This document shows positions 1 through 62,945 of a DNA stretch of 64,000 bases, piece after piece (the stretch's first letter is position 1; the number at the start of each line of letters is the position of its first letter). The notes under the pieces were generated by a model. The model was not told the DNA's origin. It did not search any database and saw nothing but the letters and a program-made list of their open reading frames with translations. The DNA comes from Escherichia coli (GTDB taxonomy: Bacteria > Pseudomonadota > Gammaproteobacteria > Enterobacterales > Enterobacteriaceae): NCBI RefSeq assembly GCF_017348835.2, contig NZ_CP071375.1; one strand, 5' to 3'. Position numbers and translations under genes: made by a program.

Positions 1-1749
1 TACGCTTAACGGCTCCCACGGTTTGAGAGTCATCCATGCGGTCATTGTCTGCGTTGGCAGATCGGTTATCTTGCCGATGTCTTTGCGTTTGGCGTCAGCG
101 TGGATCAGGGCGTAGCTCAATCCTACATCCAGTATATTGCTGATTTTCCCCTTAATACCGGCATCCAGACCGCTGTAATCCACCGTGCCGCTGTTCTGAT
201 TTTGAATGGTATCGGCATCAATATTGTGCGAGAGGATGGCATCACTCACCCGGTTATAGTAAACGCTGACCTCAAATCCCCAGTCGCGCGTGAAGGCACC
301 ATTCCAGGTTAAATCCACCCCGCGAGCGCGTTCCGGCTTGAGCTGCGGGTTAACAATCGCTATCTGGTTATACGCAGGTTTGGATGTGGTATAGCGTTCT
401 TTCAGCGTCGGAAAGCGTGTGCGGTCATAGTACGAAAGCGCCAGAGTGTCTTCATTGGCAAAGTGGTATTTCCCCATCACCTGCCAGTTAAAAGCTGACT
501 GATTGTTGTCGTCATAATGGGTGATGCTGCCATCTTTCTCATGTTTTTTCGCTTCTACGCTATCGCGCCAGTCATAGCTGATTCCAGCCACGACATCGAC
601 ATTATCGGCAGCAGCCCATTGATATTCACTGGCGAGCGACCAGGTACGATCTTCATAGCGATCGTAAGCGGCGTGCGGCGCACCTTTTTCCCGGTGTACG
701 TCATCTTTCCAGTTAACGGCAAACGACAGCAGATCGTTTTCACGCACATCGGCTGCCAGTTGTAATCCGGCACCGTCGCTGTAATCGGAATAATGGCTGT
801 AGCTGCCTTTTTTATTTTTCAAATCAGCCAGCGAGTTGTACATCATCAGCGTATTTTCAAAGGTGTCGCGATACAGCCGACTTTTCAGGGTAAAACGATC
901 GTTTAGTTGGGTCGTTCCCTGATAATAAAAACTTTCTTTGTCATACTCTGGCCACTGCCAGTAGCGTGATTTTTGACCACTATTTCCGCTGTATGGCGGG
1001 TTATCTTTTTCACCATCCTGCTTAATGTAAGTCAGTGTGTATTCATCGTTTTCACGTGGTGTAAATCCGAGCTTCACAATGCCGCGTTTATCATCAGCCG
1101 ATGAATTAATCATCTTGCCGTGGTTGCCTGCAATATCATTATTTACACCATGCGGCAGGCCGAGAAAATCCTGCTTTAGCTGGCTACCGCTGACTTGCAA
1201 ATACCCCAGATCGCTGCTGGCGGCAAATGAAGCATGCATATCGTAGGCATTGTCCTGGCTACGGCTCCATCCCTGGCGATATCCCAGACTTGCTTCCAGA
1301 GGTTTTGTTGGCTTCTGGGTGGTGATATTAATGGCTCCGCCCATCTGATTAGGCCCCTGAAGCAGCGACGAATACCCTTTGGAAACTTCGACTGCCCCCA
1401 GATTGTTGGTCAGAATCCGCGCCAGATCGAGGTTGCCGTCATAGGGAACATAAATGGGCACACCGTCGAAATAGACCGGCACCTGCCGACTATCAAAGCC
1501 ACGAACTTTTACCTGTTCTTCGTTGCGGCTGCCTGACTTTTGCAGCACCACGCCGGGGACGACACTTAATGCCTGAGCGACATTCTGTTTATCCAGGGCC
1601 TTCATGGTGGGTTGATCGAGAACGGTGGTCGTCGTCGATGATACCGGACTGGACCATACGGTCAGCGAGTCGCTCTCCTGAGCCGCTACGGCCTGCTGGG
1701 TAAAGGCAAGTGATAATGCTGTGCAGAGATAATGTTTTTTGAGTCTCAT
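1..1749 (-). CDS. TonB-dependent outer-membrane receptor (3' end beyond window start)
   Basis: Manual minus-strand translation from ATG at 1747-1749 reads MRLKKHYLCTALSLAFTQQAVAAQESDSLTVWSS... with no stop for 583 codons to position 1. Signal peptide, TonB-box-like DSLTVWS and plug-domain-like motifs (VRGFDSRQVPVYFDGVPI) are present. Absent from ORF track because there is no stop in the window. Confidence 0.75.
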   Translation of the reverse strand, partial: MRLKKHYLCTALSLAFTQQAVAAQESDSLTVWSSPVSSTTTTVLDQPTMKALDKQNVAQALSVVPGVVLQKSGSRNEEQVKVRGFDSRQVPVYFDGVPIYVPYDGNLDLARILTNNLGAVEVSKGYSSLLQGPNQMGGAINITTQKPTKPLEASLGYRQGWSRSQDNAYDMHASFAASSDLGYLQVSGSQLKQDFLGLPHGVNNDIAGNHGKMINSSADDKRGIVKLGFTPRENDEYTLTYIKQDGEKDNPPYSGNSGQKSRYWQWPEYDKESFYYQGTTQLNDRFTLKSRLYRDTFENTLMMYNSLADLKNKKGSYSHYSDYSDGAGLQLAADVRENDLLSFAVNWKDDVHREKGAPHAAYDRYEDRTWSLASEYQWAAADNVDVVAGISYDWRDSVEAKKHEKDGSITHYDDNNQSAFNWQVMGKYHFANEDTLALSYYDRTRFPTLKERYTTSKPAYNQIAIVNPQLKPERARGVDLTWNGAFTRDWGFEVSVYYNRVSDAILSHNIDADTIQNQNSGTVDYSGLDAGIKGKISNILDVGLSYALIHADAKRKDIGKITDLPTQTMTAWMTLKPWEPLSV

Positions 1750-1774
1750 AGAATAAATTCCGTTTAACAAAGAA

Positions 1775-2629
1775 TTAAATAGAGGCTGCGGGTTGCAGAC
1801 TGACTTTAATGTCAGCCGGTGCCGCGTAATAAGGCGCGGAGGTAATAAAGAGGCGAATGCCGCAGTCGAGGTAATTTTTGAGTGTCGTCAGATTAATTCC
1901 GCCGGTCAGAGCCAGCGTGCAGTGGGGAGCCAGCGACGGCGCTATTTGCGCAATTTCAGTTGCCTGTTGCGGACTAAATTTGTCGAGCTGAAGTACGTCT
2001 GGTTGCGCGCGTAACGCGGCGATTGCCTCTTTCGGCGTGTCGGCTTCAACAACAATTTTCTTCTCGGGTGCGTGGCGACGTAACTGATTGATTGCGCCTG
2101 ACCAGTCCTGATTGTCATGAAGAAAATGGCGGTGGTTGGCAAACAATAATATGGTTTCCGCACATCCGGCACGATGAATCAGTCCTCCGGCAGCCAGAAT
2201 TGCCTGCGAGGCCAGTAAGCGGGTGCCCGGAATTGCTTTTCGGGTGCAGGCGATATTGCCATCAGGATAACGTTCACGAAGTAACGCCAGCATTTGAGCG
2301 AGATAATCAGAAACACCGCAACTCCACTCCAGCACATTCTGGACTGCCTTCCATCCCTGATGAAGTGCTGCGGCATTACCCTGCGCACGGATTAGCCGTT
2401 GACCCGCGTTCGCTTGTGAACCGTCGCTGACCGCGTCCTCAATAGTTAATCCCAGCGTAGTTAACATCTTACACGCGATAGAAACGCCGCTGACGCAGCC
2501 GCCCTGACGGAGAAAAAACTCTATATAGCCATGCTGGTGTCCAATATTTAATGCTCTCGTGGTCAGGTCACCGCCCTGGATATCTTCCAGAAGTAACGCA
2601 TCGATTTGTGCCTGAGAAAGGAAAATCAT
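1775..2629 (-). CDS. ModD-like protein (quinolinate/nicotinate-nucleotide phosphoribosyltransferase paralog)
   Basis: 284 aa ORF; N-terminus MIFLSQAQIDALLLEDIQGGDLTTRAL resembles NadC/ModD family; start overlaps upstream gene stop (ATGA). Confidence 0.65.
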   Translation of the reverse strand: MIFLSQAQIDALLLEDIQGGDLTTRALNIGHQHGYIEFFLRQGGCVSGVSIACKMLTTLGLTIEDAVSDGSQANAGQRLIRAQGNAAALHQGWKAVQNVLEWSCGVSDYLAQMLALLRERYPDGNIACTRKAIPGTRLLASQAILAAGGLIHRAGCAETILLFANHRHFLHDNQDWSGAINQLRRHAPEKKIVVEADTPKEAIAALRAQPDVLQLDKFSPQQATEIAQIAPSLAPHCTLALTGGINLTTLKNYLDCGIRLFITSAPYYAAPADIKVSLQPAASI

Positions 2630-3438
2630 CGCAGTGCCTCCTGCGGTACGCTATCCCACCAGATGAGCGCCCAGTCGCGGCTGGCAGGGGCGAGGGCACG
2701 AGCATCTTGTTGTTGATACCAGCGATATAACCGCTCACGCTCATCGTCGTTAAGCGCGCCAAGACTCCAGCTGACGTTCTGCTCAAAACGTTCCCAGGTG
2801 CTGTTATCCTGTTGGCAATTTTGTCCACGGATAAAATCAACGTGGGCATAAATTCCCATCTGATACAGGACGTTGAGCGCAAAGATATAGTTGGGTAATT
2901 CGATCACTTCCCGACCAGCCGCCCGCTGAATGGCTGGAGAGACGAACGAGGTGCTGACCAGATGAGTCGTATAGACGCGAAGCCGTGCCTGATTATTCAG
3001 TTTGCTCATTGCCTGGCGCATATCAGCCACCAGAGTGGAGCGGGAAGCCACGGCAATATCGCAGCGTGGCAGGTCACTCCAGTCCTCTTCCCAGGCGCGC
3101 TGGATCCAGTGGACATTGTCTGCCTTCAGCGCGGCGGCGCGACGGGCGGCAACGTTCAGCATCCCCTGACTGTAATCAACGCCATAAATCGTCGTGAGTT
3201 TGTCAGCCAGCGCCAGCGATACGGTACCCGGTCCGCAGCCCATATCGAATAAGGTCTGAGCGCCTTGCAGGTCAATTTTAGAGATCAGTTGTTGCAGGTA
3301 GCTGTCCGTTGGCGAGGCGCAATTTTCCGCCATTTTCTCCGCCCGTTGATCCCAGTGATCGGGCGTTTTTTCTGTGCGGTGAGCCAGTTTGAGTTGCTGC
3401 AGATAAAGGTCTGCAAAATCAATATCATCAATGAGCAT
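2626..3438 (-). CDS. class I SAM-dependent methyltransferase
   Basis: 270 aa ORF with motif I LFDMGCGPGTVSLALA and downstream acidic motif YGVDYS. Confidence 0.7.
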   Translation of the reverse strand: MLIDDIDFADLYLQQLKLAHRTEKTPDHWDQRAEKMAENCASPTDSYLQQLISKIDLQGAQTLFDMGCGPGTVSLALADKLTTIYGVDYSQGMLNVAARRAAALKADNVHWIQRAWEEDWSDLPRCDIAVASRSTLVADMRQAMSKLNNQARLRVYTTHLVSTSFVSPAIQRAAGREVIELPNYIFALNVLYQMGIYAHVDFIRGQNCQQDNSTWERFEQNVSWSLGALNDDERERLYRWYQQQDARALAPASRDWALIWWDSVPQEALR

Positions 3439-3447
3439 GATTGTTCC

Positions 3448-4206
3448 TTAGCGGCTAATTGCAGAGAGGTGATGATGAATTTGGTCGGCAGAAACCCGAT
3501 ACAGGGCCGCCAGTTTGTTCGTTGTTAACTGTTCGGTCGGTAAGCCTTGTGTTACTCGTCCATCTGGCTCTACCTGGATAATGCTGTCGGCAATGGCGTT
3601 GGCATGGAGCGGATGGTGAGTCGACATTAACATTGTCATGCCGTTATTTTTGAGCTGCGCCAGCGTGTCCAGTAGTTGGATCTGATGACCGAAATCGAGG
3701 CTGGAGTCAGGCTCATCCAGTAACAACAAGCGCGGTTGCTGGACGAGTGCACGGGCGATTAAAGCCAGCTGACGTTCACCGCCGCTAAGCGTATTCCAGC
3801 GTCGTGCCGCCAGATGCAAAATACCCAGCTTTTCCAGTTGCTCCGTGGCTTTCAGGCGTTCTTGCTTACCGGGAACGGAAAAAGCGCCTATGGTGGGGGC
3901 CAGGCCCATCAACACCATATCCAGCAAACTAAAAGCAAAAATACCGTCGTGCGCCTGCGGCACCCAGGCAATAGCCTGCGCGCGCTGGCGATGGCTGAGT
4001 GTCTGCACAGGGAGGCTATCCAGTAAGACCTCGCCTTTTAATAACGGTATAACGCCAAGAATGGAGCGCATGAGTGTGGTTTTGCCGCAACCATTGGCTC
4101 CTAACAGACAACAAATTGTTCCTTGCGACAGGGTGAAGGACACGTCGCGTAGCACCGGATGGCGGGAGTAACCCAGAGACGCATGACGGACGGCAAGCAA
4201 AGTCAC
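3448..4206 (-). CDS. ABC transporter ATP-binding protein (metal-chelate type importer)
   Basis: Walker A GANGCGKTT, ABC signature LSGGERQ, Walker B LLLDEP. ORF track start at 4344 gives an N-terminal extension overlapping the permease; GTG at 4204-4206 overlaps permease stop (GTGA) and is the more likely start. Confidence 0.85.
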   Translation of the reverse strand: MTLLAVRHASLGYSRHPVLRDVSFTLSQGTICCLLGANGCGKTTLMRSILGVIPLLKGEVLLDSLPVQTLSHRQRAQAIAWVPQAHDGIFAFSLLDMVLMGLAPTIGAFSVPGKQERLKATEQLEKLGILHLAARRWNTLSGGERQLALIARALVQQPRLLLLDEPDSSLDFGHQIQLLDTLAQLKNNGMTMLMSTHHPLHANAIADSIIQVEPDGRVTQGLPTEQLTTNKLAALYRVSADQIHHHLSAISR

Positions 4207-5183
4207 TGGCGACCTCCGCGTAACAACAAAAGCAGGAAAAACGGTGCGCCAACAAAAGCGGTCAGAATGCCAAGTGGGATTTCTGTTGTTCCAATGCTGC
4301 GTGCCAGCGTATCGGTAAGCAGGAGCAGAATCGCGCCAGTACACATTGCCATGGGCAACAGCTGCTGATGGTTATGACCGGTCAACAAGCGGGCAATGTG
4401 CGGAACGACCAGGCCGACCCAACCAATTATGCCCGCTATTGCTACCGAACTGGCGGTGATTAGTGTGGCGCAGACAATCAATCCAAAGCGCAGACGCGTC
4501 ACGTTCAGTCCCAGCGAACGGGCTTCGTCGTCGGAAAGCGTGAGTAAATTCATGCGCCAGCGGAGAAAAAACAGGGGCAAGGAGCCTATGAGAATGATCG
4601 GTGCAGCATAACAGAGATCGCGTAAGGTCACGGTAGACAGTCCCCCCAGCAACCAGAAGGTAATTGACGGTAACTGGGTGTAAGGATCGGCCAGCGTTTT
4701 AATTAGCGATATCCCCGCTCCGCACAACGTTCCTAACGCAATGCCTACCAGCACCAGGGTTAAGATCGGATCGTGGCGGGTCACCCGACGCGTAATCAAC
4801 CAGACGCCCGCGACCACCATCAGCCCGCCGCAAAATGCGTACAGCTGGATGTAAACAATGGATAATCCCCACAGAATTGCCGTGCAGGCACCAAGTCCGG
4901 CACCGGCGGAGACGCCTAAAATATCCGGTGAAACTAAGGGATTACGCAATATTCCCTGATAGGTGGTTCCGGCTCCTGCCAGCGCCGCGCCCAGTAACAG
5001 CGCAGCAAGAATACGCGGCACGCGGATTTGCCAGAAGACAATTTGTTCCTGCACAGGAACATTTTCTTGACGAAGAATTAGCGCCAGCAGTTGCTGCATA
5101 TCGAGATGATAAGCCCCACTTACGGCGGCAAAAGTGATACTGATAGCTGCCAGCAGCAAAATACATCCGTTTGCGATTCTCAT
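4203..5183 (-). CDS. FecCD-family ABC permease
   Basis: 326 aa highly hydrophobic ORF with multi-TM pattern typical of FecD/BtuC permeases; start overlaps upstream gene stop. Confidence 0.8.
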   Translation of the reverse strand: MRIANGCILLLAAISITFAAVSGAYHLDMQQLLALILRQENVPVQEQIVFWQIRVPRILAALLLGAALAGAGTTYQGILRNPLVSPDILGVSAGAGLGACTAILWGLSIVYIQLYAFCGGLMVVAGVWLITRRVTRHDPILTLVLVGIALGTLCGAGISLIKTLADPYTQLPSITFWLLGGLSTVTLRDLCYAAPIILIGSLPLFFLRWRMNLLTLSDDEARSLGLNVTRLRFGLIVCATLITASSVAIAGIIGWVGLVVPHIARLLTGHNHQQLLPMAMCTGAILLLLTDTLARSIGTTEIPLGILTAFVGAPFFLLLLLRGGRQ

Positions 5184-6205
5184 TAGCTCGCCACCAATTT
5201 TTGATAGTCGGCGTCACTGAGTGAACAATGCCAGAACAGTTGGGCGTAATGCTGCATGTCACTTTTAAACTGGCGATTGATGGCGGGATCCAGCCAGGCG
5301 TGAAGTCTGCGTAATCCCAGAAGACGGTTGATTCCCGGCGGGGCATCCAGCCAGCCAAAGGGCAAGCCACTTAAAAATAAGATGCGTTGTTCCGCAACGG
5401 CTTTCACGCCCTGCCAGAGAGGATCACGACGAATAAAATCTGCAGTAACGGCCTCCTGAACCAGAATAATATCCGGCTGCCAGCGCAGGAGATTTTCCAT
5501 GGAAACCTGTGTCAGGCCGTGGCGATCGGCTATTTGCGCGACGTTGTGCAAACCTAATAATTCCGCCGCCTCGGTATGCAACGAACCCTGTAAGCCCGTT
5601 TCCAGCCCTTGAGGACCGCGCGCAGCATAAAAGCGGAGGTTAGCGGCGGGTGAGGTGGCGAATGCCTGAGCTTCACCAACGAAGCGGCTGGCGAGATTGG
5701 CTTGTTCTGCGGCGCGATGCTCTTCGCCTAACGTTTTGCCAAGCGTTGTTAACTGTTCTGCTGATTGCTCCAGTTTCCCGTTAAGCAATAACCAGGGTAT
5801 TTGTGTCTGTTCGCTAACCTGCCGTGCCTGGGAGATCCAGGTTTCATCCGTATTGCCGCAATCAACGACCAAATCGGGATGTAACGCCATAAGCCCTTCC
5901 AGCGAGAGTGTGCTGGCGCGCCCGGCGAGTCGTCCCAGCCTGGGTAACTGGCGAATGTGCTCTGACAATGGAATTAATGCCTGACGGGCAAAATCAAAAG
6001 AGGAAAAACCGACCATTTTTTCTGGCGCGACAGCCAGCAATAGCAAATCGGCGGGCGCACCTGCGCTGACGATGCGTGTAATGTTTTGGGCTTCGGGAAG
6101 CGTCAGTGAGGCCCAGAAATTGACTGATTGTGCAAAGGACGGCAGATGATGCAGGAACAATGTTGACGCAAGAATCTGTGTAAACCTCCGTCTGGTTAGT
6201 GACAT
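5183..6205 (-). CDS. periplasmic substrate-binding protein (FecB/BtuF-like), possible Tat-type signal
   Basis: 340 aa ORF; N-terminus MSLTRRRFTQILASTLFLHHLPSFAQ has RR motif followed by hydrophobic stretch and AxA-like cleavage site; first gene of minus-strand operon. Confidence 0.75.
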   Translation of the reverse strand: MSLTRRRFTQILASTLFLHHLPSFAQSVNFWASLTLPEAQNITRIVSAGAPADLLLLAVAPEKMVGFSSFDFARQALIPLSEHIRQLPRLGRLAGRASTLSLEGLMALHPDLVVDCGNTDETWISQARQVSEQTQIPWLLLNGKLEQSAEQLTTLGKTLGEEHRAAEQANLASRFVGEAQAFATSPAANLRFYAARGPQGLETGLQGSLHTEAAELLGLHNVAQIADRHGLTQVSMENLLRWQPDIILVQEAVTADFIRRDPLWQGVKAVAEQRILFLSGLPFGWLDAPPGINRLLGLRRLHAWLDPAINRQFKSDMQHYAQLFWHCSLSDADYQKLVAS

Positions 6206-6480
6206 AAGTTATATCCTGATAATTAAAACCGCTATATATTTACATATATATATCGAAAAAAATCATGTTTGATGTCAAAATTTGTCTAAAGAGACAGAAT
6301 GATTTGCTTGTTGCTTAAATAACACTTTGTTCCACAAGAAAATTGTCAGGGAGAATGGCGGAGTGGCGAAAAATATAAATAGAGGTGTAATGATTAACAA
6401 ATTGATAAAATAAAATTAAAATCTTCTCTGATAAAAGAAAATAAAGGCATAGACCGTAGAATGGGGGGCATTTCGTGGCG

Positions 6481-6523
6481 AAAAAAGAGCAATGCCAATT
6501 TTATGCACATAATGGCATTGCTC
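6481..6523 (-). terminator. rho-independent terminator downstream of treA
   Basis: Inverted repeat gagcaatgcc/ggcattgctc (6487-6496, 6514-6523) followed on minus strand by T-run (6481-6486). Confidence 0.5.
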
Positions 6524-6550
6524 GATATACAGCCTCGATATACAGCAAAG

Positions 6551-8248
6551 TTAAGGCGTAGGTTCCGCCTCTTTTTGTTTTACCGGCTGTGTTGTTGATT
6601 CACTGAGTGGACGCGTCGCCGGAACATTGTCACACGGTTGCTCTTTCGGGCAGATCAAATCCAGCATTTTCAGCGTCACGCCATTGGTCCAGCCAAAGCC
6701 ATCCTGTAATGGATATTCGCCACCGCCGCCCCCCGTTCCGGTGGTGCTGACATCATATTTTTCCACCAGCTTTTTCTCCCGGTCATAGGTGTGCTGAACA
6801 TTGGTCAGGAAGTGCCAGCTAATGTCCATCGCCACCTCTTTTTGCCCGTAGTTTTGTAATCCTTCTGTCGCGACCCACTGTAACGGTGCCCAGCCATTTG
6901 GCGCATCCCATTGTTGCCCACTTTTCACCGACGTGGTGTTCAGGCCGCCGGGTTGCAGCAGATGTGTTTTCGTCGCCGTCGCCATTTTGTTGGCGCGATC
7001 TTTCGCTGCCGCATTGACGTACAGCGGGAACAGGGCGGCAGCGGTTAACTGATTGCGCACTTTATGACTTTTCAGGTCGTAATCGGCATACCAGCCTTGT
7101 TGATCGTTCCACAGGTATTTTTCGATCCCTTTTTGACGGGCATTTGCCAGCGTTTCGTACTGGTTTGCCATCGCGTTATCTCCGGCAACTTTGCTGGCGC
7201 GGGCGAGAATTTTTTCCATTTTAAACATCAGGCTGTTCAGATCGACCGGTACGATGCTGGTGGTGCGTATGGTATTTAACTGCTGCGGATTGTCCATCCA
7301 GCGCGAGCTGAAATCCCAGCCAGACGCAGCGGCAGAGCGCAAGTCGCGGTAAATTTCAGTGGCAGGTCGATTCGGATTGCTTTTGGCGGTGGCAATATCT
7401 TCCACCCATGACTCTGGTCGTGGCGTATCGCGATCGTCCCAGTAGCGGTTGAGAAGGGTACCATCCTGAAGTTTTACAACGCGTTTTTCCTGTTGTCCGG
7501 CTTGCAGGTTTTCAACACCGTCCATCCAGTAAGCATATTCTTTTTGCATTTGCGGCAGGTATTGCTTCAATGCAGCATCGCCTTCATGCTGCGCCAGTAA
7601 CTCTACCATCATGGCAAAGAAGGGCGGCTGCGAGCGGCTTAAATAGTAACTGCGGTTGCCGTTGGGAATATGACCGTAAGTGTCTATTTCATGAGCAAAA
7701 TTGGCCACCATATCCGCGACCTTATCCCAGTGACCGCTTTCGGCAAGTCCTAACATGGTGAAGTAACTGTCCCAGTAATATACCTCGCGAAAACGTCCGC
7801 CTGGCACGACATAAGGTTCCGGCAGCGGTAACAGAGAATCCCATTTTTCGGTGTTTTCGGTAGAACGCGTTAATACCGGCCAAAGTCCGTCAATATGTTC
7901 GCGCAGTGACTGTCCCTCTGGCGGAACATATTTCTCTCCCTCTTTCGGCAGGGTGAAATTGACGTTAACGAAATGGCGCAGATCAAATCCGCTCTGGTTT
8001 TGCTGCATCCGATAATCAGCAAGGATCATCAGCGGATCGCTGTTCGGCACGGCATCGGCAAAGGTTTTTTGGTCCGGAAAAAGCTTGGCGTTTTGCACAT
8101 CATTAAACAGCGGCCCTAATAAAATATCAGGCGGCTGTGGCGTTACCGGTGTTTCTTCTGCCTGCACCGATAGCGCAGCGAAACACAAAAAGATGCAGGC
8201 TGGAATTAACGCCATTTTTTGCGGGCGAGAAGGTGCGGGGGATTTCAT
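6551..8248 (-). CDS. treA: periplasmic trehalase
   Basis: Translation [30 protein letters not shown]... matches TreA throughout; ORF track starts one Met earlier (8251). Confidence 0.95.
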
Positions 8249-8567
8249 CAATCATTCTCCTTAGGCGAAACCGAATAAAACGGTATTCAAGTATCAGAAA
8301 ACCTTAGTTCAGGATCGCACTAGCTGCATGATCGAAATCTCATTCTGCGAACTGTCAGGCATTTTAGAAAAGGGAATTAAAGGGATAAATAACGGCGAAA
8401 TAGAGTGATCAAATAACGTCTGTTTATTAGCCAGCCAGCGGCGTTTGGTTCGCGATTAGCGAAGAAAAATCATCATAAATTGGTGAAAAATATAACAGGT
8501 AGTTAAAAAACATTAGTGCTGAGTAAATTGCCGGATGACATCAGAACGATGCCATCCGAACGGTGGC

Positions 8568-9986
8568 TTAACCCTGACGGTTGAAACGTTGCGTTTTAAC
8601 GTCCAGCGTTAGCTTTTCTTCTGGTTGTATCGCATACAGTTTCTCACCCTGCTGGCAAATCCAGCCAATCCCCAGTTCACGGGCGATCAGGGCGCTGTGG
8701 GATACCGGACTTCCGGCGCTAAGGCAGATACCTTTTACAACCGCCGGATCCAGTTGCAGTACTGTGGAAGGATAAATGTTCTCCGCCAGTAGAATAGTTG
8801 GCGAGTTAAACTGCGGGAGTTCTTCTTTCGTTTGGGTCAGGTGGACCAGGGCGCGATGCAGAAGATCGTCCACATCAATATAGCGAGCTTGTAGATATTC
8901 ATCATCCAGTTGCTGGTATTGCTGGCTAAGTTCTTTAAGAACTTGCTGCCAGGCATATTCTGCCGTGCAATGTTCGTGCTGAAGGAGTTCGCTTGCCGCC
9001 GCCAGCAGTTCCGGATCATCTAACAGTGTATGGTGACCAGAAAAGATTGCGGCAATATCGTCAAGCCCGCTGGCTTCTGCTTTCGCTGTTAACGTCATCA
9101 GATCTAATAACGTGAAGTCAATGGCCTGGCGTAATCGTTCTTGTTCTTCTTCCACGGTCAGGGTTGATTTGGCCTGTACCGTACATAAAACCGGTTGATA
9201 ATAAAAGGCTTTACCCGAAACAGGCGGAACGGGACGCAGAGTAGGTGGAGCAACTTCCTCCGTTTCACCAAAGTTATCTTCAGCCAGCTGACGGAAAGCG
9301 ATCAGTGCCTCTTCAGCTTCTGGCCCTTTCGCAATCAGGCGCAGCGTATCGTTATAGCGAACTTGTAATAACGCAATCTGGTTAATACTCTCCGGTGTGA
9401 CGCATTTGCCGTTTTTCTCCAACAACATATCGGCATTAAATGTCGATAAGGTATAAACCAGCCGGGAGGCTGGACGTACATGCAGGCCGTTACGGTTCTT
9501 TATGACCACCGCCAGAGAACGGGCTTCTTCATCGTACGGAGGACATGTGTCAGAGATTTCAGTGTCGGAGGACGGTAAACCCAGTTGTTCACGTTTGGCT
9601 TCCAGCGCATGCATGGCGTCAAAGATAACTTTGTCGATATCCGCCCCCGAGGCCGCGCTGACCGTTGCTGCCAGTGTACCTTCGACCAACGGCGCAGCAC
9701 ACAAACGTACTTTTGCGGCGATCTCGGGAGCCAGCAATTCCAGCGCAGTTTCAGCACTCAATAATGCGCTACCCATATCCATCATGACCAGCACATGGTC
9801 GGCATCAGCAACAGATTCGATGGCCTCCATCACTTTGACGGCATCGGTACCAATGGGATTTTGTGGATCGTCAATTCCCGCGGCAATGGCGATTTTACAA
9901 CTATCACTCATTAACATCTGACGGGCTAATTCACCGACACCTTCTCCCAGTCGGCTGCTATGTGAAACTATGACCAGGTTTACCAT
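8568..9986 (-). CDS. dhaM: dihydroxyacetone kinase phosphotransferase subunit (PTS EI/HPr/EIIA-like)
   Basis: Translation MVNLVIVSHSSRLGEGVGELARQ... matches DhaM; ORF track start at 9992 adds 2 aa. Confidence 0.93.
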   Translation of the reverse strand: MVNLVIVSHSSRLGEGVGELARQMLMSDSCKIAIAAGIDDPQNPIGTDAVKVMEAIESVADADHVLVMMDMGSALLSAETALELLAPEIAAKVRLCAAPLVEGTLAATVSAASGADIDKVIFDAMHALEAKREQLGLPSSDTEISDTCPPYDEEARSLAVVIKNRNGLHVRPASRLVYTLSTFNADMLLEKNGKCVTPESINQIALLQVRYNDTLRLIAKGPEAEEALIAFRQLAEDNFGETEEVAPPTLRPVPPVSGKAFYYQPVLCTVQAKSTLTVEEEQERLRQAIDFTLLDLMTLTAKAEASGLDDIAAIFSGHHTLLDDPELLAAASELLQHEHCTAEYAWQQVLKELSQQYQQLDDEYLQARYIDVDDLLHRALVHLTQTKEELPQFNSPTILLAENIYPSTVLQLDPAVVKGICLSAGSPVSHSALIARELGIGWICQQGEKLYAIQPEEKLTLDVKTQRFNRQG

Positions 9987-9996
9987 CACCAATTCC

Positions 9997-10629
9997 TTAC
10001 TCTTTTGCGGCTAACGCCAACATTTGCATCATAAACATCACCGAGGTCGCGCCGGGATCCTGGTGACCAATACTGCGTTCACCGAGATAACTGGCGCGGC
10101 CTTTGCGGGCTTGCATCGTAATCGTACTTTGTGCAGCGGATTCGGCGATGCTACTGGCAGCTTCGAGCGCCGCCGGAACAGAGAGATTTTGCTCGCTGGA
10201 CTGACGTAACGATTCCACCACCGGCACCCACACATCACACATGGTTTTATCGCCAGGTTCGGCTTTCCCGCGACTGATTACGCCGTCCGCACCATCGCGG
10301 AACATCTGATAAAGCTCTTCCAGCGTCAGGCTTTGCCGTGCCTGGGTCGCCTGTGCTGCGCGGATAAAGAAGGTGCCGAACAGCGGACCACTGGCACCAC
10401 CGACGCTGGAAAGCAGCGTCATACCGGTATTCTTGAGAATGAAACCGATATCTTTATCTGCGATAGCAGGGAGTTTTTCCACCACTTTGCTAAAGCCTCG
10501 GTTCATATTTAGCCCGTGGTCAGCGTCGCCAATTTCGCGATCCAGTCCGGTAAGATACTCGCTCTCGGTGCTGAAAATATCGCCACAACGAGTGAGCCAG
10601 TTAACAATTTGAGTTCTGCTCAGTGACAT
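9997..10629 (-). CDS. dhaL: dihydroxyacetone kinase ADP-binding subunit
   Basis: MSLSRTQIVNWLTRCGDIF... matches DhaL (210 aa); ORF track entry has 26-aa N-terminal extension. Confidence 0.93.
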   Translation of the reverse strand: MSLSRTQIVNWLTRCGDIFSTESEYLTGLDREIGDADHGLNMNRGFSKVVEKLPAIADKDIGFILKNTGMTLLSSVGGASGPLFGTFFIRAAQATQARQSLTLEELYQMFRDGADGVISRGKAEPGDKTMCDVWVPVVESLRQSSEQNLSVPAALEAASSIAESAAQSTITMQARKGRASYLGERSIGHQDPGATSVMFMMQMLALAAKE

Positions 10630-10639
10630 TGCTTTCTCC

Positions 10640-11710
10640 TTATTTACCCCAGTTAAGGGCCGGGGTGTGGACCGGGGCGTCCCAGAGTGCCAGCGTTTCG
10701 TCATCAACTTTCAGTAAGGTGATTGAGAAACCGGTCATATCCAGTGAGGTGCAGTACGCGCCAATTAAATTACGCTCGATAGTCAATCCCGCTTGCTGGC
10801 AACGTGTGGTCAGGCGGTTATAGACGCCGTACAGCTCAGAAAGTGGAGTTGCGCCAAGATTGTTAACCAGCGCAATCACCCTATCGCCAGACTGGAGCGG
10901 TTGTTTGGTTTGTGGTTCTTCCTGCCAGTTGCCTTGTTGATAATCCCAGAAACGCAAAGTGCGATGGTATGAGCCATTTTCCAGCAGGGTGTCGAACATT
11001 TCATCGACGGTTTGATCAAGGGAAGAGAAGGGGCGGCGGTCAATACCTGGCTCACCATGAATGCCGACGCCAAACTCCATCTCATTGTCCGCCAGGGTAA
11101 AAGAAGGTTTGCCCGCGGCAGGAACGGTACAGGCACCGAGAGCGATACCTATTGAGTGGCCTTGATTATTCAACTTACGCCCCAGTTCCGCACAGGCGTC
11201 CAGTGAGTCGCCACGCTCCGCCGCTGCGCCTACGAGTTTTTCAATTAATACGGTGTTGGCAACGCCGCGTCGCCCGGCGGTATAAAGACTGTCTTTTACT
11301 GCAACGTCGTCATCAATGACCACAGTGGTCACTTTTACGCCGCTATCGTGCAGTAACTCGGTTGCTGTTTCGAAGTTAAGAATATCGCCGGTGTAATTTT
11401 TGATAATCAACAGTACACCTTCGCCGCCATCAACTTGCATGGCGCATTCAAAGATTTTATCGGGCGTCGGTGAGGTGAAAATTTCGCCCGGACAGGCCCC
11501 CGAAAGCATCCCCTGACCGATATAACCACAGTGCATCGGCTCGTGTCCGCTGCCGCCACCCGACAGCAGGGCGACTTTTCCTGTAACGGGGGCATCAGCT
11601 CGGGTGACATACACCGGATCCTGATGCAGTGTCAGCGATGGATGTGCTTTCGCCAGTCCTGCCAGTTGTTCGTCCAGTACGTCTTGCACATCATTGATCA
11701 ATTTTTTCAT
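10640..11710 (-). CDS. dhaK: dihydroxyacetone kinase DHA-binding subunit
   Basis: MKKLINDVQDVLDEQLAGLAKAHPSLTLHQDPVYV... matches DhaK (356 aa); ORF track start 11740 is an extension. Confidence 0.93.
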   Translation of the reverse strand: MKKLINDVQDVLDEQLAGLAKAHPSLTLHQDPVYVTRADAPVTGKVALLSGGGSGHEPMHCGYIGQGMLSGACPGEIFTSPTPDKIFECAMQVDGGEGVLLIIKNYTGDILNFETATELLHDSGVKVTTVVIDDDVAVKDSLYTAGRRGVANTVLIEKLVGAAAERGDSLDACAELGRKLNNQGHSIGIALGACTVPAAGKPSFTLADNEMEFGVGIHGEPGIDRRPFSSLDQTVDEMFDTLLENGSYHRTLRFWDYQQGNWQEEPQTKQPLQSGDRVIALVNNLGATPLSELYGVYNRLTTRCQQAGLTIERNLIGAYCTSLDMTGFSITLLKVDDETLALWDAPVHTPALNWGK

Positions 11711-17012: not shown

Positions 17013-17339
17013 ATGACTAAAAATACTCGTTTTTCCCCCGAAGTCCGTCAGCGGGCGATTCGTATGGTTCTGGAAAGTCAGGATGAATATGACTCACAGT
17101 GGGCGGCAATTTGTTCCATTGCCCCAAAGATTGGCTGTACGCCGGAGACTCTGCGTGTCTGGGTTCGCCAGCATGAGCGGGATACCGGGAGTGGTGATGG
17201 TGGACTCACCACCGCTGAACGTCAGCGTCTGAAAGAGCTGGAACGTGAAAATCGTGAACTGCGCCGCAGTAACGATATCCTTCGCCAGGCTTCCGCTTAT
17301 TTTGCGAAGGCGGAGTTCGACCGCCTCTGGAAAAAATAA
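17013..17339 (+). CDS. IS3-family transposase OrfA (HTH/leucine zipper)
   Basis: 108 aa [22 protein letters not shown]... recalled as IS629 OrfA; ends in A-rich slippery run ggaaaaaataa. Confidence 0.88.
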
Positions 17340-18226
17340 TGCCACTGCTGGATAAGCTGCGTGAGCAGTACGGGGTCGGACCGGTATGCAGCGAACTGCA
17401 TATTGCCCCGTCAACGTATTACCATTGTCAGCAACAGCGACATCATCCGGATAAACGCAGTGCCCGTGCGCAGCACGATGACTGGCTGAAGAAAGAGATA
17501 CAGCGCGTATACGATGAAAATCACCAGGTATACGGTGTGCGTAAAGTCTGGCGTCAGTTGTTACGGGAAGGTATCAGAGTGGCCAGATGCACTGTGGCAC
17601 GTCTCATGGCAGTTATGGGACTTGCCGGTGTTCTCCGGGGTAAAAAGGTCCGCACTACCGTCAGCCGGAAAGCCGTTGCCGCATGCGACCGCGTAAACCG
17701 TCAGTTCGTGGCAGAACGTCCAGACCAGTTGTGGGTGGCTGATTTTACCTGGGTAAGCACATGGCAGGGCTTCGTTTATGTGGCGTTCATCATTGATGTG
17801 TTCGCCGGATACATCGTGGGATGGCAGGTCTCATCATCCATGGAAACAACATTCGTGCTGGATGCACTGGAGCAGGCGTTGTGGGCCCGTCGGCCGTCCG
17901 GCACAATCCATCACAGTGATAAAGGTTCTCAGTATGTATCGCTGGCCTACACGCAGCGGCTTAAGGAAGCCGGATTACTGGCATCAACAGGGAGTACTGG
18001 CGACTCGTATGACAACGCGATGGCTGAGAGCATCAATGGTCTTTACAAAGCGGAGGTAATACACCGTAAGAGCTGGAAAAACCGTGCAGAAGTGGAACTG
18101 GCCACACTCACGTGGGTGGACTGGTATAACAATCGACGATTGCTGGAAAGGCTGGGCCATATTCCTCCGGCAGAAGCAGAAAAAGCTTATTATGCTTCCA
18201 TCGGAAATAATGATCTGGCAGCCTGA
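17339..18226 (+). CDS. IS3-family transposase OrfB (DDE catalytic domain), expressed as OrfAB by -1 frameshift
   Basis: 295 aa [15 protein letters not shown]... in -1 frame relative to OrfA; DDE-type motifs (HSDKGSQY, DNAMAES). Confidence 0.88.
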   Translation: MPLLDKLREQYGVGPVCSELHIAPSTYYHCQQQRHHPDKRSARAQHDDWLKKEIQRVYDENHQVYGVRKVWRQLLREGIRVARCTVARLMAVMGLAGVLRGKKVRTTVSRKAVAACDRVNRQFVAERPDQLWVADFTWVSTWQGFVYVAFIIDVFAGYIVGWQVSSSMETTFVLDALEQALWARRPSGTIHHSDKGSQYVSLAYTQRLKEAGLLASTGSTGDSYDNAMAESINGLYKAEVIHRKSWKNRAEVELATLTWVDWYNNRRLLERLGHIPPAEAEKAYYASIGNNDLAA

Positions 18227-18911
18227 GTTCACAGATAAAACACTCTCCAGGAAACCCGGGGCGGTTCACTTCTCTGAGAATAATTCTCTATTACCGGGCA
18301 AAATCAGGAACACAGGAATTAATATATATTTAACATCCCCCTTACAAAGGTGAGTTTATATCGAGTTATTCCCTAAGTTGTCGTTACTTATTCCAATTCG
18401 TTACTATGAATATGGCAAAAATATTACAACAAACAGCGGTTAAAAAATTTGGTGAAGATTTTTGTAATAATCCTAATTAGTTATGGGATTTTCGCTTGAT
18501 GTATCTGCATAACAAAAACAATATGCGCCATTTTTGCATTACTAATAAGAAAAAGCAAAAAACATCGATATTCATTTTTGGTCAATGGGTTTTCTGGCCT
18601 ATCGTTGTTATTGTGCTACTGGTTATCATTTTCATCTTGCCAGGATCGCACGTAATCACGTTATTCGGGGACTTTATCTGCGGGATATTACCCTTCAGGT
18701 AAGTCCTTTTCTCGCCAGCATATTGGAGCGTGATCAATATTGATCAGCTGTGAAGGGGGCTGATGTGTAGTGGAACAAAAACTGACGTTATATCACTGCT
18801 AATGAGATATCCGTCATCTGAACACTTATGTCTTTAATTATTTTGGTGGTCACTGTAGGCAATAAGCACAAAAGTGTAGGATGTTACAAGAATGATTAGG
18901 ACTCGGTGAAA

Positions 18912-62252: not shown

Positions 62253-62945
62253 CATTATTTTTACTTTGTTCCTGCGCAGTTATCAAAAGCAAAAGGAATA
62301 GGTAAAAATATTCTTCTCAAATTACAGTTAGTTATAAGGATTTCCTTAACTGCTTCTCTTCACCATCATGTTAATTTCGCCACATCATAATCCTGGGCTT
62401 GCTGAAGAATAATTGAAATGATATTAGTAATTCCACTGCCTTTGGTAGAGGAAAGTGCTAAATAATAATCAATTGTTAAATTATTGTGCATTTCACTACC
62501 GGAACTGTAATCAGAAAAGATAGACATGCTTAACCAATCTCTATTTGATTGAATTGAAAGATGTTTGTTAAGACATGGATGCAAGCTATAGATTCTGATA
62601 CGGTCAATAAAAGAGAATTGCTTAACAATTTTGCAAAATGTATTGGCGAGTAAGAAGCGCATTTGGTACTTTCCGGGCAACCGCCAGGCGATTCTTTATT
62701 GGTAATGAGAATAATTAACAATTAAAGAGCGTCGCGAAAGAATAATGTGTCTCGACAGGGGAGACACAGTACGAATCGACATAAGGTGATCGTCTGAATC
62801 ACCAGAATAAATAAAGTCGGTGATAGCAATCCGTAACGATAAAGTAACCTGACAGCAGAAAGTCTCCGAGCCTGTGCAGGGTCCCATTCCGGGATTACAC
62901 ATGCTGGTTAATACCAGTAATTATAATGAGGGAGTCCAAAAAACA

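What the first reader, a model, noticed from the sequence alone, without database searches (positions are those of the whole stretch)
1775..3438. ModD-like PRTase paralog translationally coupled to a SAM methyltransferase inside a transporter operon
The ModD-like ORF (NadC-type N-terminus) and the methyltransferase (DMGCGPG motif I) overlap by 4 bp and sit between the ABC importer and the receptor gene. ModD family proteins are named for mod-operon association but have, to my knowledge, no defined activity. A PRTase-like enzyme plus a methyltransferase implies the substrate is a heteroaromatic acid that becomes ribosylated and/or methylated after uptake.
Basis: inference. Interest (0 to 1): 0.6.

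Follow-up and report, generated by a model that had tools for sequence, protein, structure and literature searches.

The report
Molybdenum-regulated TonB uptake operon with ModD
The ModD-like gene and the methyltransferase gene do overlap inside a six-gene E. coli transporter operon, but the operon carries a conserved binding site for the molybdenum sensor ModE and sits with molybdenum-handling genes in other bacteria, so it is most likely a molybdenum acquisition system (not iron or pyridine-acid uptake) whose two enzymes still have no known reaction.

Summary
On the minus strand, a class I SAM methyltransferase (2626-3438) and a ModD protein (1775-2629) overlap by ATGA. They lie between a binding-protein/permease/ATPase importer and a TonB-dependent receptor. 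This is the E. coli "prrA-modD-yc73-fepC" cluster, present in about 40% of complete E. coli genomes and described in the literature only as putative iron uptake.

The interpretation needs changing. I found no convincing Fur box and no riboswitch. A ModE (molybdate sensor) operator lies 25-60 nt upstream of the first gene in 38 of 41 orthologous operons from about a dozen genera (81 sites observed against about 1 expected). The permease and ATPase are closest to MolBC, the Haemophilus type II molybdate/tungstate importer, whose locus also holds modD.

ModD without the methyltransferase sits beside ModA/ModB/short-ModC genes. It also occurs fused to a ModC-type ATPase and to NifQ. The methyltransferase follows the receptor/type II importer even where ModD is absent, often next to Mop molbindins.

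ModD keeps most NadC ligand residues, but the lysine matching Mtb Lys172 is phenylalanine family-wide.

Best reading: a ModE-controlled, TonB-dependent Mo/W acquisition operon. The reactions of both enzymes remain unknown.

The parts
6230..6255 (-). ModE-type operator (inverted repeat CGATATATATATGTAAATATATAGCG), 24 nt upstream of the binding-protein start codon. This strain has a 26-nt form with an extra AT; other E. coli have the canonical 24-nt core.
   Evidence: Matches the E. coli ModE consensus ATCGNTATATA-N6-TATATANCGAT (PMC545781). Other E. coli show 2-3 mismatches and the window shows 5 because of the 2-bp insertion. The element is conserved at the same position in 38 of 41 orthologous operons. 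81 sites observed against a mean of 1.1 in resampled DNA.
5183..6205 (-). Periplasmic binding protein (class III / Peripla_BP_2 type) with a twin-arginine-like signal peptide (LTRRRFTQ).
   Evidence: ORF. Best solved relative is 4pag_A (98.7 bits; Foldseek TM 0.76). MolA (3psa) scores only 35.9 bits and TM 0.65, rank 4. AF2 model pLDDT 87.8.
4203..5183 (-). FecCD-family type II ABC importer permease, MolB-like.
   Evidence: Best PDB match is HI1471 (MolB, 2nq2_A) at 222 bits, E 1e-64, ahead of FhuB (173), haem importers (166/163) and BtuC (142). NCBIfam hits.
3448..4206 (-). ABC ATPase (252 aa, no C-terminal regulatory domain), MolC-like. GTG start overlaps the permease stop (GTGA).
   Evidence: Junction. 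Best single-domain PDB match is HI1470 (MolC, 2nq2_C) at 124 bits.
2626..3438 (-). Class I SAM-dependent methyltransferase ('Yc73') of a small-molecule methyltransferase fold. Motif I DMGCGPG lies at 3226-3246.
   Evidence: Pfam Methyltransf_25/31/12/11. No NCBIfam family reaches its cut-off. AF2 pLDDT 89.8. Foldseek finds only generic small-molecule methyltransferases at 12-18% identity. The family holds 171 proteins and is always found in this kind of operon.
1775..2629 (-). ModD protein (NadC-like type II phosphoribosyltransferase fold). Its start overlaps the methyltransferase stop (ATGA, 2626-2629). Phe163 (2141-2143) replaces the NadC quinolinate-binding lysine.
   Evidence: TIGR01334 at 503 bits. 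Alignment to M. tuberculosis NadC 1qpn. Family conservation.
1..1749 (-). TonB-dependent outer-membrane receptor ('PrrA'); the first 583 of 656 codons, the rest lying beyond the window edge.
   Evidence: TonB-dependent receptor subfamily models at E 1e-36, all below cut-off. No solved relative at E<1e-8. 32% identical over its full length to the receptor of the Mop/NifQ-linked operon L089.

Best explanation
The methyltransferase-ModD pair is the cytoplasmic part of a six-gene, ModE-controlled molybdenum (or tungsten) acquisition operon.

Shown in silico: a ModE operator precedes the operon. When cellular molybdate is sufficient, ModE-molybdate should sit on it and shut the operon off, as it does at modABC.

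Inferred path of the metal: under Mo shortage the TonB-dependent receptor takes a Mo/W species across the outer membrane. The binding protein passes it to a MolBC-like type II ABC importer.

Inferred role of ModD: it acts at the cytoplasmic exit of molybdenum importers of either ABC type and passes Mo on to downstream acceptors (the Moco pathway in E. coli; NifQ and Mop in other bacteria). It probably still binds PRPP or another phosphoribosyl ligand, because the ribose, phosphate and anion-site residues of NadC are kept. Its base pocket is remodelled (Lys to Phe, plus new invariant Gln214, Lys217 and Trp93), so quinolinate is not its substrate.

Inferred role of the methyltransferase: it is specific to the receptor/type II branch and most likely methylates a small molecule that arrives with, or is needed to release, the imported Mo species.

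The actual reactions of both enzymes are unknown.
For: (1) Operator. The consensus comes from PMC545781. It is found 25-60 nt upstream of the first gene in Escherichia, Citrobacter, Raoultella, Enterobacter, Klebsiella indica, Serratia, Proteus, Morganella, Providencia, Pantoea, Erwinia and Pectobacterium, although the flanking DNA does not align. A second box precedes the receptor gene in Proteus, Morganella, Providencia and Pectobacterium. 81 sites with 4 or fewer mismatches in 1.55 Mb, against a mean of 1.1 in 20 local resamplings.
(2) A homologous operon in a 66%-GC organism (receptor 32%, binding protein 39%, ModD 37% identity) has a 1-mismatch ModE box 39 nt upstream. It encodes a NifQ::ModD fusion and a di-Mop molbindin.
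(3) The permease and ATPase are closest to MolB and MolC. MolBC-A imports molybdate/tungstate and is repressed by molybdate (PMC4031551). The H. influenzae locus reads modA, molABC, modD-salX-cysU (PMC3928620).
(4) ModD without the methyltransferase lies beside ModA (TIGR01256), a NifC-like permease (TIGR01581) and a short ModC lacking the TOBE domain. It is also fused to that ATPase type, lies beside anfHDGK-like genes and Mop by sequence reading, and lies near MoaE/MoeB/FdhD in a methanogen.
(5) ModD::NifQ fusions occur in both domain orders.
(6) The methyltransferase follows the ATPase in receptor-DUF2478-binding protein-permease-ATPase operons that lack ModD, with TOBE/Mop genes nearby.
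(7) No Fur box better than 13 of 19 in the 410-nt scan around the promoter (6150-6560), about 1 such match expected by chance. No Rfam hit, which covers the cobalamin and Moco riboswitches.
Against: There are no experimental data; every link is comparative. The binding protein is only marginally similar to MolA (35.9 bits; Foldseek rank 4), so its ligand is open. No TonB-dependent receptor for a Mo species is described in the papers I could search, and a free oxyanion would not obviously need one. Published mentions of the cluster call it iron uptake, and RefSeq names the binding protein 'iron ABC transporter substrate-binding protein'. In this window's strain the operator is disturbed by a 2-bp insertion, and the simple promoter scan finds no clear sigma-70 promoter over it. 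The model gives the methyltransferase no specific chemistry. Six loci keep methyltransferase+ModD without the ABC genes, and one Shewanella methyltransferase is an orphan next to a transposase.
Confidence: 0.6

Rival explanations
1. The cargo is an organic heteroaromatic (pyridine- or quinoline-carboxylate) or catecholate chelator carrying Mo, a 'molybdophore'. After import, ModD phosphoribosylates the ring nitrogen and the methyltransferase methylates a hydroxyl or carboxyl group. This destroys the chelate, releases Mo and traps the ligand.
For: A TonB-dependent receptor plus a type II importer is the usual machinery for metal chelates and cofactors, not for free ions (established knowledge; nearest receptor families). 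ModD keeps the NadC PRPP-side residues and has an aromatic pocket where the second carboxylate of quinolinate would bind. The methyltransferase has a small-molecule methyltransferase fold with many invariant aromatic and arginine residues. The binding protein is not MolA-like. 8-hydroxyquinoline-2-carboxylic acid has been proposed as a molybdophore (title and abstract of PMC7356571).
Against: ModD occurs just as often with ModABC-type importers of bare molybdate and without the methyltransferase. The methyltransferase occurs in such operons without ModD, so the two do not form an obligatory two-step pathway on one ligand. No chelator biosynthesis genes lie in the operon or next to it.
Confidence: 0.15
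2. ModD is not an enzyme. It is a NadC-derived anion-binding module that binds molybdate at the former PRPP/quinolinate site. It serves as a regulatory or hand-off domain for the importer ATPase, functionally replacing the TOBE domain of ModC.
For: Fusion proteins carry ModD exactly where ModC carries its TOBE domain (P0142 and P0147). ATPases next to ModD are short and match only positions 4-210 of the 353-position ModC model. There are fusions to NifQ and a truncated ModD fused to a di-Mop domain. The conserved residues are mostly cationic (R130, K131, H152, R153, K94, K217).
Against: The acidic residues that hold the ribose and Mg2+ in NadC (E195, D/E216) and the 5-phosphate glycine loop (G243-G244) are also nearly invariant. 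A plain oxyanion binder would not need these. The ModD::Mop protein has a truncated ModD and may be an assembly artefact.
Confidence: 0.3
3. The operon is what it is annotated as: a Fur-type iron, haem or siderophore uptake system, with ModD and the methyltransferase processing the iron chelate.
For: RefSeq product names. Published mentions as a putative iron-uptake cluster. The receptor hits siderophore and haem receptor subfamily models (E 1e-36, below cut-offs) and the importer is of the FecCD family. Several structural neighbours of the binding protein bind iron chelates or haem.
Against: No Fur box above chance. The conserved element in the promoter is a ModE box in every genus examined. 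The nearest solved permease and ATPase are the molybdate importer. Gene neighbours and fusions elsewhere are Mop, NifQ and ModABC, never iron genes.
Confidence: 0.07

Closest known systems
[quoted passage not shown]
   Same: This is the same locus: receptor (prrA), modD, methyltransferase (yc73), ATPase (fepC), plus the permease and binding protein. It lies between ymgE and treA.
   Different: The literature only names it and proposes iron uptake. No paper in the searched library mentions a ModE site, molybdenum, or a role for ModD or Yc73.
MolBC-A (HI1470/HI1471/HI1472), the type II molybdate/tungstate ABC importer of Haemophilus influenzae, with the adjacent modD (HI1473)
   Same: The permease and ATPase are the best solved relatives (222 and 124 bits). 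It is a type II importer, it is repressed by molybdate (PMC4031551), and modD lies in the same locus (PMC3928620).
   Different: The E. coli binding protein is only marginally similar to MolA. The E. coli operon adds a TonB-dependent receptor and a dedicated methyltransferase, which the cited H. influenzae gene list does not include.
ModABC(D) molybdate transport operons and the ModE regulon
   Same: The same operator consensus in front of the operon. ModD is the protein first named from a mod operon. Many ModD genes lie next to ModA, ModB and short ModC genes.
   Different: ModABC is a type I importer of the free oxyanion with no outer-membrane receptor and no methyltransferase. Here the importer is type II.
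NadC, quinolinate phosphoribosyltransferase (e.g. M. tuberculosis 1qpn)
   Same: The same two-domain fold and family (76 bits to 1qpn). The equivalents of Arg139, Lys140, His161, Arg162, Glu201, Asp222 and the Gly-Gly phosphate loop are conserved.
   Different: It scores below the NadC equivalog cut-off (136 against 198). Lys172 is Phe in 77 of 81 ModD proteins, and Arg105 is mostly Lys. ModD-specific invariants are Trp93, Gln214 and Lys217. Its genomic context is molybdenum, not NAD synthesis.
NifQ, the molybdenum donor for nitrogenase FeMo-cofactor synthesis (role from established knowledge)
   Same: It is linked to ModD by gene fusion in both domain orders, which points to a shared step in Mo trafficking.
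   Different: E. coli has no NifQ, so ModD must serve another acceptor there. There is no sequence similarity between ModD and NifQ.
TonB-dependent receptor plus BtuFCD/HmuTUV-type import systems for cobalamin, haem and siderophores
   Same: The same overall architecture: receptor, class III binding protein, and a homodimeric type II permease with its ATPase.
   Different: Regulation is by a ModE box rather than a Fur box or a B12 riboswitch. The cytoplasmic partners are ModD and a methyltransferase rather than reductases, esterases or haem oxygenases.

Membership tests
ModD (NCBIfam TIGR01334) | Full-length match above the curated cut-off | tested here: met
   503.3 bits against a cut-off of 178.85, covering residues 2-278 of 284.
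ModD (NCBIfam TIGR01334) | Genomic association with molybdenum transport or regulation | tested here: met
   ModE operator in front of the operon. Family members lie next to ModA/ModB/ModC and are fused to a ModC-type ATPase and to NifQ.
NadC / quinolinate phosphoribosyltransferase (TIGR00078) | Score above the equivalog cut-off | tested here: not met
   135.9 bits against a cut-off of 198.4.
NadC / quinolinate phosphoribosyltransferase (TIGR00078) | Complete set of cationic quinolinate-binding residues (Mtb Arg105, Arg139, Lys140, His161, Arg162, Lys172; residue roles recalled from the literature, positions checked on the alignment) | tested here: not met
   Lys172 is Phe163 (Phe in 77 of 81 ModD proteins) and Asp173 is variable. 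The other residues are kept or conservatively changed.
NadC / quinolinate phosphoribosyltransferase (TIGR00078) | PRPP-side residues (Glu201, Asp222, Gly249-Gly250 loop) | tested here: met
   Glu195 in 78 of 81, Asp/Glu216 in 78 of 81, Gly243 in 79 of 81 and Gly244 in 75 of 81.
NadC / quinolinate phosphoribosyltransferase (TIGR00078) | Catalysis of quinolinate + PRPP to NaMN | not testable with these tools
   Needs an enzyme assay.
Class I SAM-dependent methyltransferases | Motif I (D/E-x-G-x-G-x-G) and an acidic residue after strand 2 | tested here: met
   D65-M-G-C-G-P-G71 and Asp88 are invariant in 21 homologs. Pfam Methyltransf_25/31.
Class I SAM-dependent methyltransferases | Rossmann-like methyltransferase fold | tested here: met
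   AF2 model pLDDT 89.8. Foldseek probability 1.0 to many methyltransferases, TM 0.5-0.6.
A named methyltransferase subfamily (CpaM, UbiE/MenG, BchM, TehB/ArsM and others) | Score above any curated family cut-off | tested here: not met
   The best hit is CpaM at 43 bits against a cut-off of 180. Structural neighbours share 12-18% identity.
MolBC-A type II molybdate/tungstate importer | Permease and ATPase closest to MolB and MolC among solved transporters | tested here: met
   222 bits to MolB against 173 or less for FhuB, haem importers and BtuC; 124 bits to MolC.
MolBC-A type II molybdate/tungstate importer | Binding protein orthologous to MolA | tested here: inconclusive
   35.9 bits over 82 residues. 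Foldseek rank 4, TM 0.65, 20% identity, behind 4pag and TM0189.
MolBC-A type II molybdate/tungstate importer | Binding and transport of molybdate or tungstate | not testable with these tools
   Needs binding and uptake assays.
ModE regulon | Operator matching ATCGNTATATA-N6-TATATANCGAT in the promoter region, conserved in orthologs | tested here: met
   0-4 mismatches in most genera. E. coli O157 has 2 and the majority E. coli type has 3. 38 of 41 operons carry it. 81 observed against 1.1 expected.
ModE regulon | Intact operator in this window's own strain | tested here: inconclusive
   A 2-bp AT insertion moves the left CG out of register, giving 5 mismatches. It is unique among 2145 E. coli records.
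ModE regulon | Molybdate- and ModE-dependent repression in vivo | not testable with these tools
   Needs expression and DNA-binding experiments.
Fur-regulated iron uptake operons | Fur box in the promoter | tested here: not met
   Best match is 12-13 of 19 in the 410-nt scan around the promoter (window 6150-6560), with about 1 such match expected by chance from the whole-window distribution.
TonB-dependent outer-membrane receptors | Plug plus 22-strand barrel family similarity | tested here: met
   E 1e-36 to TonB-dependent receptor subfamily models over the full length, all below subfamily cut-offs. RefSeq names it a 'TonB-dependent receptor plug domain-containing protein'. The homolog in L085 carries Pfam Plug + TonB_dep_Rec_b-barrel.

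The most novel reading that the evidence does not exclude
The operon does not import free molybdate. It imports an organic molybdenum species through the TonB-dependent receptor and the type II importer: either a small 'molybdophore' chelate (for example a hydroxyquinoline- or pyridine-carboxylate, or a catecholate) or a pterin-type molybdenum cofactor scavenged from the gut. ModD (as a phosphoribosyltransferase) and the methyltransferase then act on the organic ligand to release or trap the metal. This would be the first dedicated chelated-Mo or Moco-salvage pathway in enterobacteria, and the first reaction assigned to ModD.
Probability: 0.15. Interest if true: 0.85.

Novelty: new variant of a known kind. 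Interest (0 to 1): 0.6.

Why it matters
Molybdenum enzymes (nitrate, formate, DMSO and TMAO oxidoreductases) drive anaerobic respiration of enterobacteria in the inflamed gut and urinary tract, so Mo supply affects fitness.

This cluster is carried by about 40% of complete E. coli genomes, including uropathogenic and O157 lineages, and by Proteus, Morganella, Providencia and Citrobacter. It is currently counted among iron-uptake or virulence genes.

If it is a ModE-controlled molybdenum system with an outer-membrane receptor, three things follow:
- A widespread annotation would be corrected.
- TonB-dependent uptake would be added to Mo biology.
- ModD, unexplained since it was first named from a mod operon, would gain a tractable E. 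coli setting, a defined regulator, a defined partner methyltransferase, and fusion partners (ModC ATPase, NifQ) that say where in Mo trafficking to look.

Tried and rejected
- **Fur box:** only 12-13 of 19 matches upstream, at chance level. Iron regulation is not supported.
- **Rfam scan of 1-7000 at E<=1:** nothing, so no cobalamin or Moco riboswitch.
- **Cobalamin or haem cargo:** considered because of the BtuC/HmuU and CpaM hits. Rejected because MolB is clearly the closest solved permease and the gene context is molybdenum.
- **The E. coli fit iron system:** a different locus.
- **The search for related loci with divergent ModD alignments:** failed twice for lack of a conserved stretch. 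A closer alignment worked, so the genome survey is biased toward Gammaproteobacteria.
- **PDB sequence search with the receptor:** no hit.
- **Foldseek on the methyltransferase model:** only generic small-molecule methyltransferases, no functional assignment.
- **Foldseek on the binding-protein model:** does not settle the ligand.
- **DUF2478 protein of the non-enterobacterial operons:** no solved or curated relative.
- **Promoter scan:** no clear sigma-70 promoter over the operator in this strain.
- **The 'ΔmodD' mutant in an ExPEC Tat-system paper:** most likely a misprint for mdoD, since MdoD (not ModD) is in that paper's list of predicted Tat substrates. Irrelevant here.
- **Tirado-Lee 2011 (MolA) and Studholme & Pau 2003 (ModE sites):** not held in the library. 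I therefore could not check whether a ModE site at this cluster was already reported.
Full report
**What is in the window.** The window is E. coli chromosome, 100% identical to strain PE164, and the locus lies between ymgE and treA. Six genes sit on the minus strand, tightly packed:
- a periplasmic binding protein (6205..5183);
- a FecCD-type permease (5183..4203);
- an ABC ATPase (4206..3448, GTG start overlapping the permease stop);
- a class I SAM methyltransferase (3438..2626);
- ModD (2629..1775);
- a TonB-dependent receptor (1749..<1, cut by the window edge; 656 aa in the genome record).

The methyltransferase stop and the ModD start overlap as ATGA at 2626-2629. Motif I, DMGCGPG, is present at residues 65-71. 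ModD scores 503 bits on TIGR01334 (cut-off 179) and only 136 bits on the NadC model (cut-off 198).

**It is conserved, and already named.** The 6.6-kb block occurs in 2150 of 5426 complete E. coli genomes. A survey of one genome per species returned 80 loci that encode a ModD relative.
- 41 loci hold the complete six-gene order and 5 more are partial. They come from Escherichia, Citrobacter, Raoultella, Enterobacter, Klebsiella indica, Yokenella, Serratia, Symbiopectobacterium, Proteus, Morganella, Providencia, Pantoea, Erwinia and Pectobacterium.
- The 4-bp methyltransferase/ModD overlap is kept in 50 of 52 loci that have both genes.
- The literature calls this the prrA-modD-yc73-fepC cluster of CFT073 and O157:H7 and says only that it may mediate iron uptake.

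**Regulation points to molybdenum, not iron.** The region around the promoter (window 6150-6560) has no Fur box better than 12-13 of 19, about what chance gives. It has no Rfam family match. Lining up the 130 nt in front of the first gene from all orthologous operons showed one conserved element in otherwise unalignable DNA: an inverted repeat CGyTATAT-N8-ATATArCG.
- This is the E. coli ModE consensus ATCGNTATATA-N6-TATATANCGAT, as quoted by Rodionov et al. (PMC545781).
- Raoultella and Intestinirhabdus have perfect 28-nt matches, and most genera have 1-4 mismatches.
- The box lies 25-60 nt upstream of the binding-protein start in 38 of 41 operons.
- A second box precedes the receptor gene in Proteus, Morganella, Providencia and Pectobacterium. 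Boxes also precede methyltransferase-ModD pairs that lack the importer (Edwardsiella, Intestinirhabdus) and lone ModD or modA-like operons.
- Across 1.55 Mb of fetched loci there are 81 sites with 4 or fewer mismatches, against a mean of 1.1 in 20 local first-order resamplings.
- Typical E. coli carry the box with 2-3 mismatches.

**The importer resembles the Haemophilus molybdate system.** Among solved structures the permease is closest to HI1471 (MolB) at 222 bits. FhuB scores 173, the haem importers 166 and 163, and BtuC 142. The best single-domain hit of the ATPase is HI1470 (MolC).
- MolBC-A is a type II importer of molybdate and tungstate whose transcription is repressed by molybdate (PMC4031551).
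- Its locus in H. influenzae Rd reads modA, molABC, modD-salX-cysU (PMC3928620).
- The binding protein is the weak point. It is only marginally similar to MolA (35.9 bits). Its AF2 model (pLDDT 87.8) is closest to an uncharacterised Sulfurospirillum protein (4pag, TM 0.76), with MolA ranked fourth.
- The receptor has no close solved or curated relative.

**ModD follows molybdenum; the methyltransferase follows this transporter type.** In 28 of the 80 loci, ModD occurs without the methyltransferase.
- In Pasteurella, Cedecea, Yersinia alsatica, Gilliamella and an Alcaligenaceae genome it lies next to a small ABC system. In Pasteurella canis that system was identified as ModA (TIGR01256), a NifC-like Mo permease (TIGR01581) and a short ModC that matches only the nucleotide-binding half of the ModC model, so it lacks the TOBE domain.
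- Two representative proteins are fusions of such an ATPase with ModD in the place of the TOBE domain, one of them inside a modA-modB operon.
- ModD is fused to NifQ in both domain orders. One truncated ModD is fused to a di-Mop domain.
- An archaeal ModD lies near MoaE, MoeB and FdhD.
- The methyltransferase family is small, with 171 proteins. Its more distant members (40-49% identity) are the last gene of receptor-DUF2478-binding protein-permease-ATPase-methyltransferase operons that lack ModD. TOBE/Mop genes lie next to them in two of the three such contexts.
- One operon, from a 66%-GC organism, has everything: receptor, DUF2478, binding protein, permease, ATPase, methyltransferase, NifQ::ModD and a di-Mop protein. 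A 1-mismatch ModE box lies 39 nt upstream. Its receptor, binding protein and ModD are homologous to the E. coli proteins (32%, 39% and 37% identity).

**What ModD looks like as an enzyme.** I mapped the HMMER alignment to M. tuberculosis NadC (1qpn) onto 81 diverse ModD proteins.

| NadC residue (Mtb) | ModD position | Conservation in 81 ModD proteins |
|---|---|---|
| Arg139 | Arg130 | 80 |
| Lys140 | Lys131 | 79 |
| His161 | His152 | 79 |
| Arg162 | Arg153 | 79 |
| Glu201 | Glu195 | 78 |
| Asp222 | Asp/Glu216 | 78 |
| Gly249-Gly250 phosphate loop | Gly243-Gly244 | 79 / 75 |
| Lys172 | Phe163 | Phe in 77 |
| Arg105 | Lys94 | Lys 63, Arg 16 |

ModD also has its own invariants: Trp93, Gln214 and Lys217. 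The residue roles in NadC are recalled from the structural literature. The numbering was checked against the alignment and fits. The PRPP side therefore looks intact while the base pocket is remodelled. ModD is not a quinolinate enzyme, but it may still be a phosphoribosyltransferase. No solved structure is closer than NadC at 76 bits.

**What the methyltransferase looks like.** The AF2 model is confident (pLDDT 89.8). It resembles assorted small-molecule N-, O-, C- and S-methyltransferases at TM 0.5-0.6 and 12-18% identity, and none of them is specific. Family invariants beyond the SAM motifs include C126-D-I-x-x-A-S-R-S-T135, several Trp and Tyr residues, and Arg154. The substrate cannot be named.

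**Most likely mechanism.**
- Shown in silico: the operon belongs to the ModE regulon. Its inner-membrane importer is MolBC-like. ModD is a general companion of molybdenum importers and of NifQ. The methyltransferase is a specific companion of the receptor/type II branch.
- Inferred: under Mo shortage the receptor and importer bring in a Mo/W species. ModD works at the cytoplasmic exit of the importer and passes Mo on, probably using a phosphoribosyl ligand. The methyltransferase modifies a small molecule that comes with, or is needed to release, that species.
- Confidence: about 0.8 that this is a Mo/W system under ModE, and 0.6 for the statement as a whole. I cannot say which reactions the two enzymes catalyse.

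**Rival explanations.**
The separable distributions of the two enzymes, and ModD's association with bare-oxyanion importers, argue against it.
- A non-catalytic ModD that replaces the TOBE domain is a serious alternative for ModD alone (0.3).
- Iron uptake, the current annotation, is poorly supported (0.07).

**Novelty.** The genes and the cluster are known and annotated. Ten full-text searches found no paper linking this cluster to ModE or molybdenum, and none describing a TonB-dependent receptor in a Mo regulon (the most relevant were). Two key papers were not available to check. I rate it a new variant of a known kind: a MolBC/ModD-type Mo system extended by an outer-membrane receptor and a dedicated methyltransferase.

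Noticed in passing
window 6230-6255 (minus strand): The ModE operator of this strain (PE164) carries an extra AT dinucleotide in its left arm (26 nt instead of 24). Only 1 of 2145 E. coli records with this promoter has it; even strain F2_81, 99.9% identical across the 6.6-kb block, lacks it. It moves the left CG out of register and could derepress the operon, or it could be a sequencing error in an (AT)n run.
   Followed up: partly
window 6124-6205 (minus strand), first 27 codons of the binding protein: The binding protein has a twin-arginine-type signal peptide (MSLTRRRFTQILASTLFLHHLPSFAQS), which suggests export by the Tat pathway, possibly already folded or ligand-bound.
   Followed up: no
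L026-L035, L038, L041, L043, L044, L046-L048, L054, L055, L058 at about 10900-11100: In Proteus, Morganella, Providencia and Pectobacterium a second ModE box sits in a longer spacer between modD and the receptor gene, so the receptor may have its own Mo-regulated promoter. In E. coli the spacer is only 25 nt and has no box.
   Followed up: partly
L085-L087, L089, L090 (for example L089 4639-5190): Non-enterobacterial versions of the operon carry a DUF2478 gene (PF10649, 180 bits) between the receptor and the binding protein. It has no solved or curated relative. It is another uncharacterised protein tied to this molybdenum system.
   Followed up: partly
L022, L039, L040, L045 (Edwardsiella), L051 (Leminorella), L024 (Intestinirhabdus); protein P0382: Methyltransferase-ModD pairs that have lost the ABC importer still keep a ModE box upstream. 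An Edwardsiella tarda protein (P0382) is an ABC-ATPase remnant fused to the methyltransferase, which suggests the importer genes were deleted from an ancestral full operon.
   Followed up: partly
L061 and L062 (about 3300-10000): Here ModD lies next to genes that read as an alternative (anfHDGK-like) nitrogenase, a Mop protein and a modA-like operon, with perfect or near-perfect ModE boxes nearby. The gene identities were read from the sequence and not verified with a family search.
   Followed up: no
window 8568-9992 (minus strand): The matching RefSeq record annotates dhaM as a pseudogene with an internal stop. The window shows a 474-codon ORF that begins with TTG.
   Followed up: no
window 17339-18226: An IS3-family transposase ORF (295 aa) lies upstream of ychF, so the window contains at least one insertion sequence.
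   Followed up: no
window 62701-62719 and 18615-18633: The two best Fur-box-like matches in the whole window (15 of 19) lie here, far from the operon: one downstream of a MarC-family membrane-protein gene and one between the IS element and ychF.
   Followed up: no
L002 (contig JAIJJM010000374.1): A 3.2-kb contig assigned to a Collinsella MAG carries this operon at 98% identity to E. coli. It is most likely E. coli contamination of the bin.
   Followed up: no
summary (E. coli genomes): Eight of the 2153 copies of the operon lie on plasmids rather than on chromosomes.
   Followed up: no
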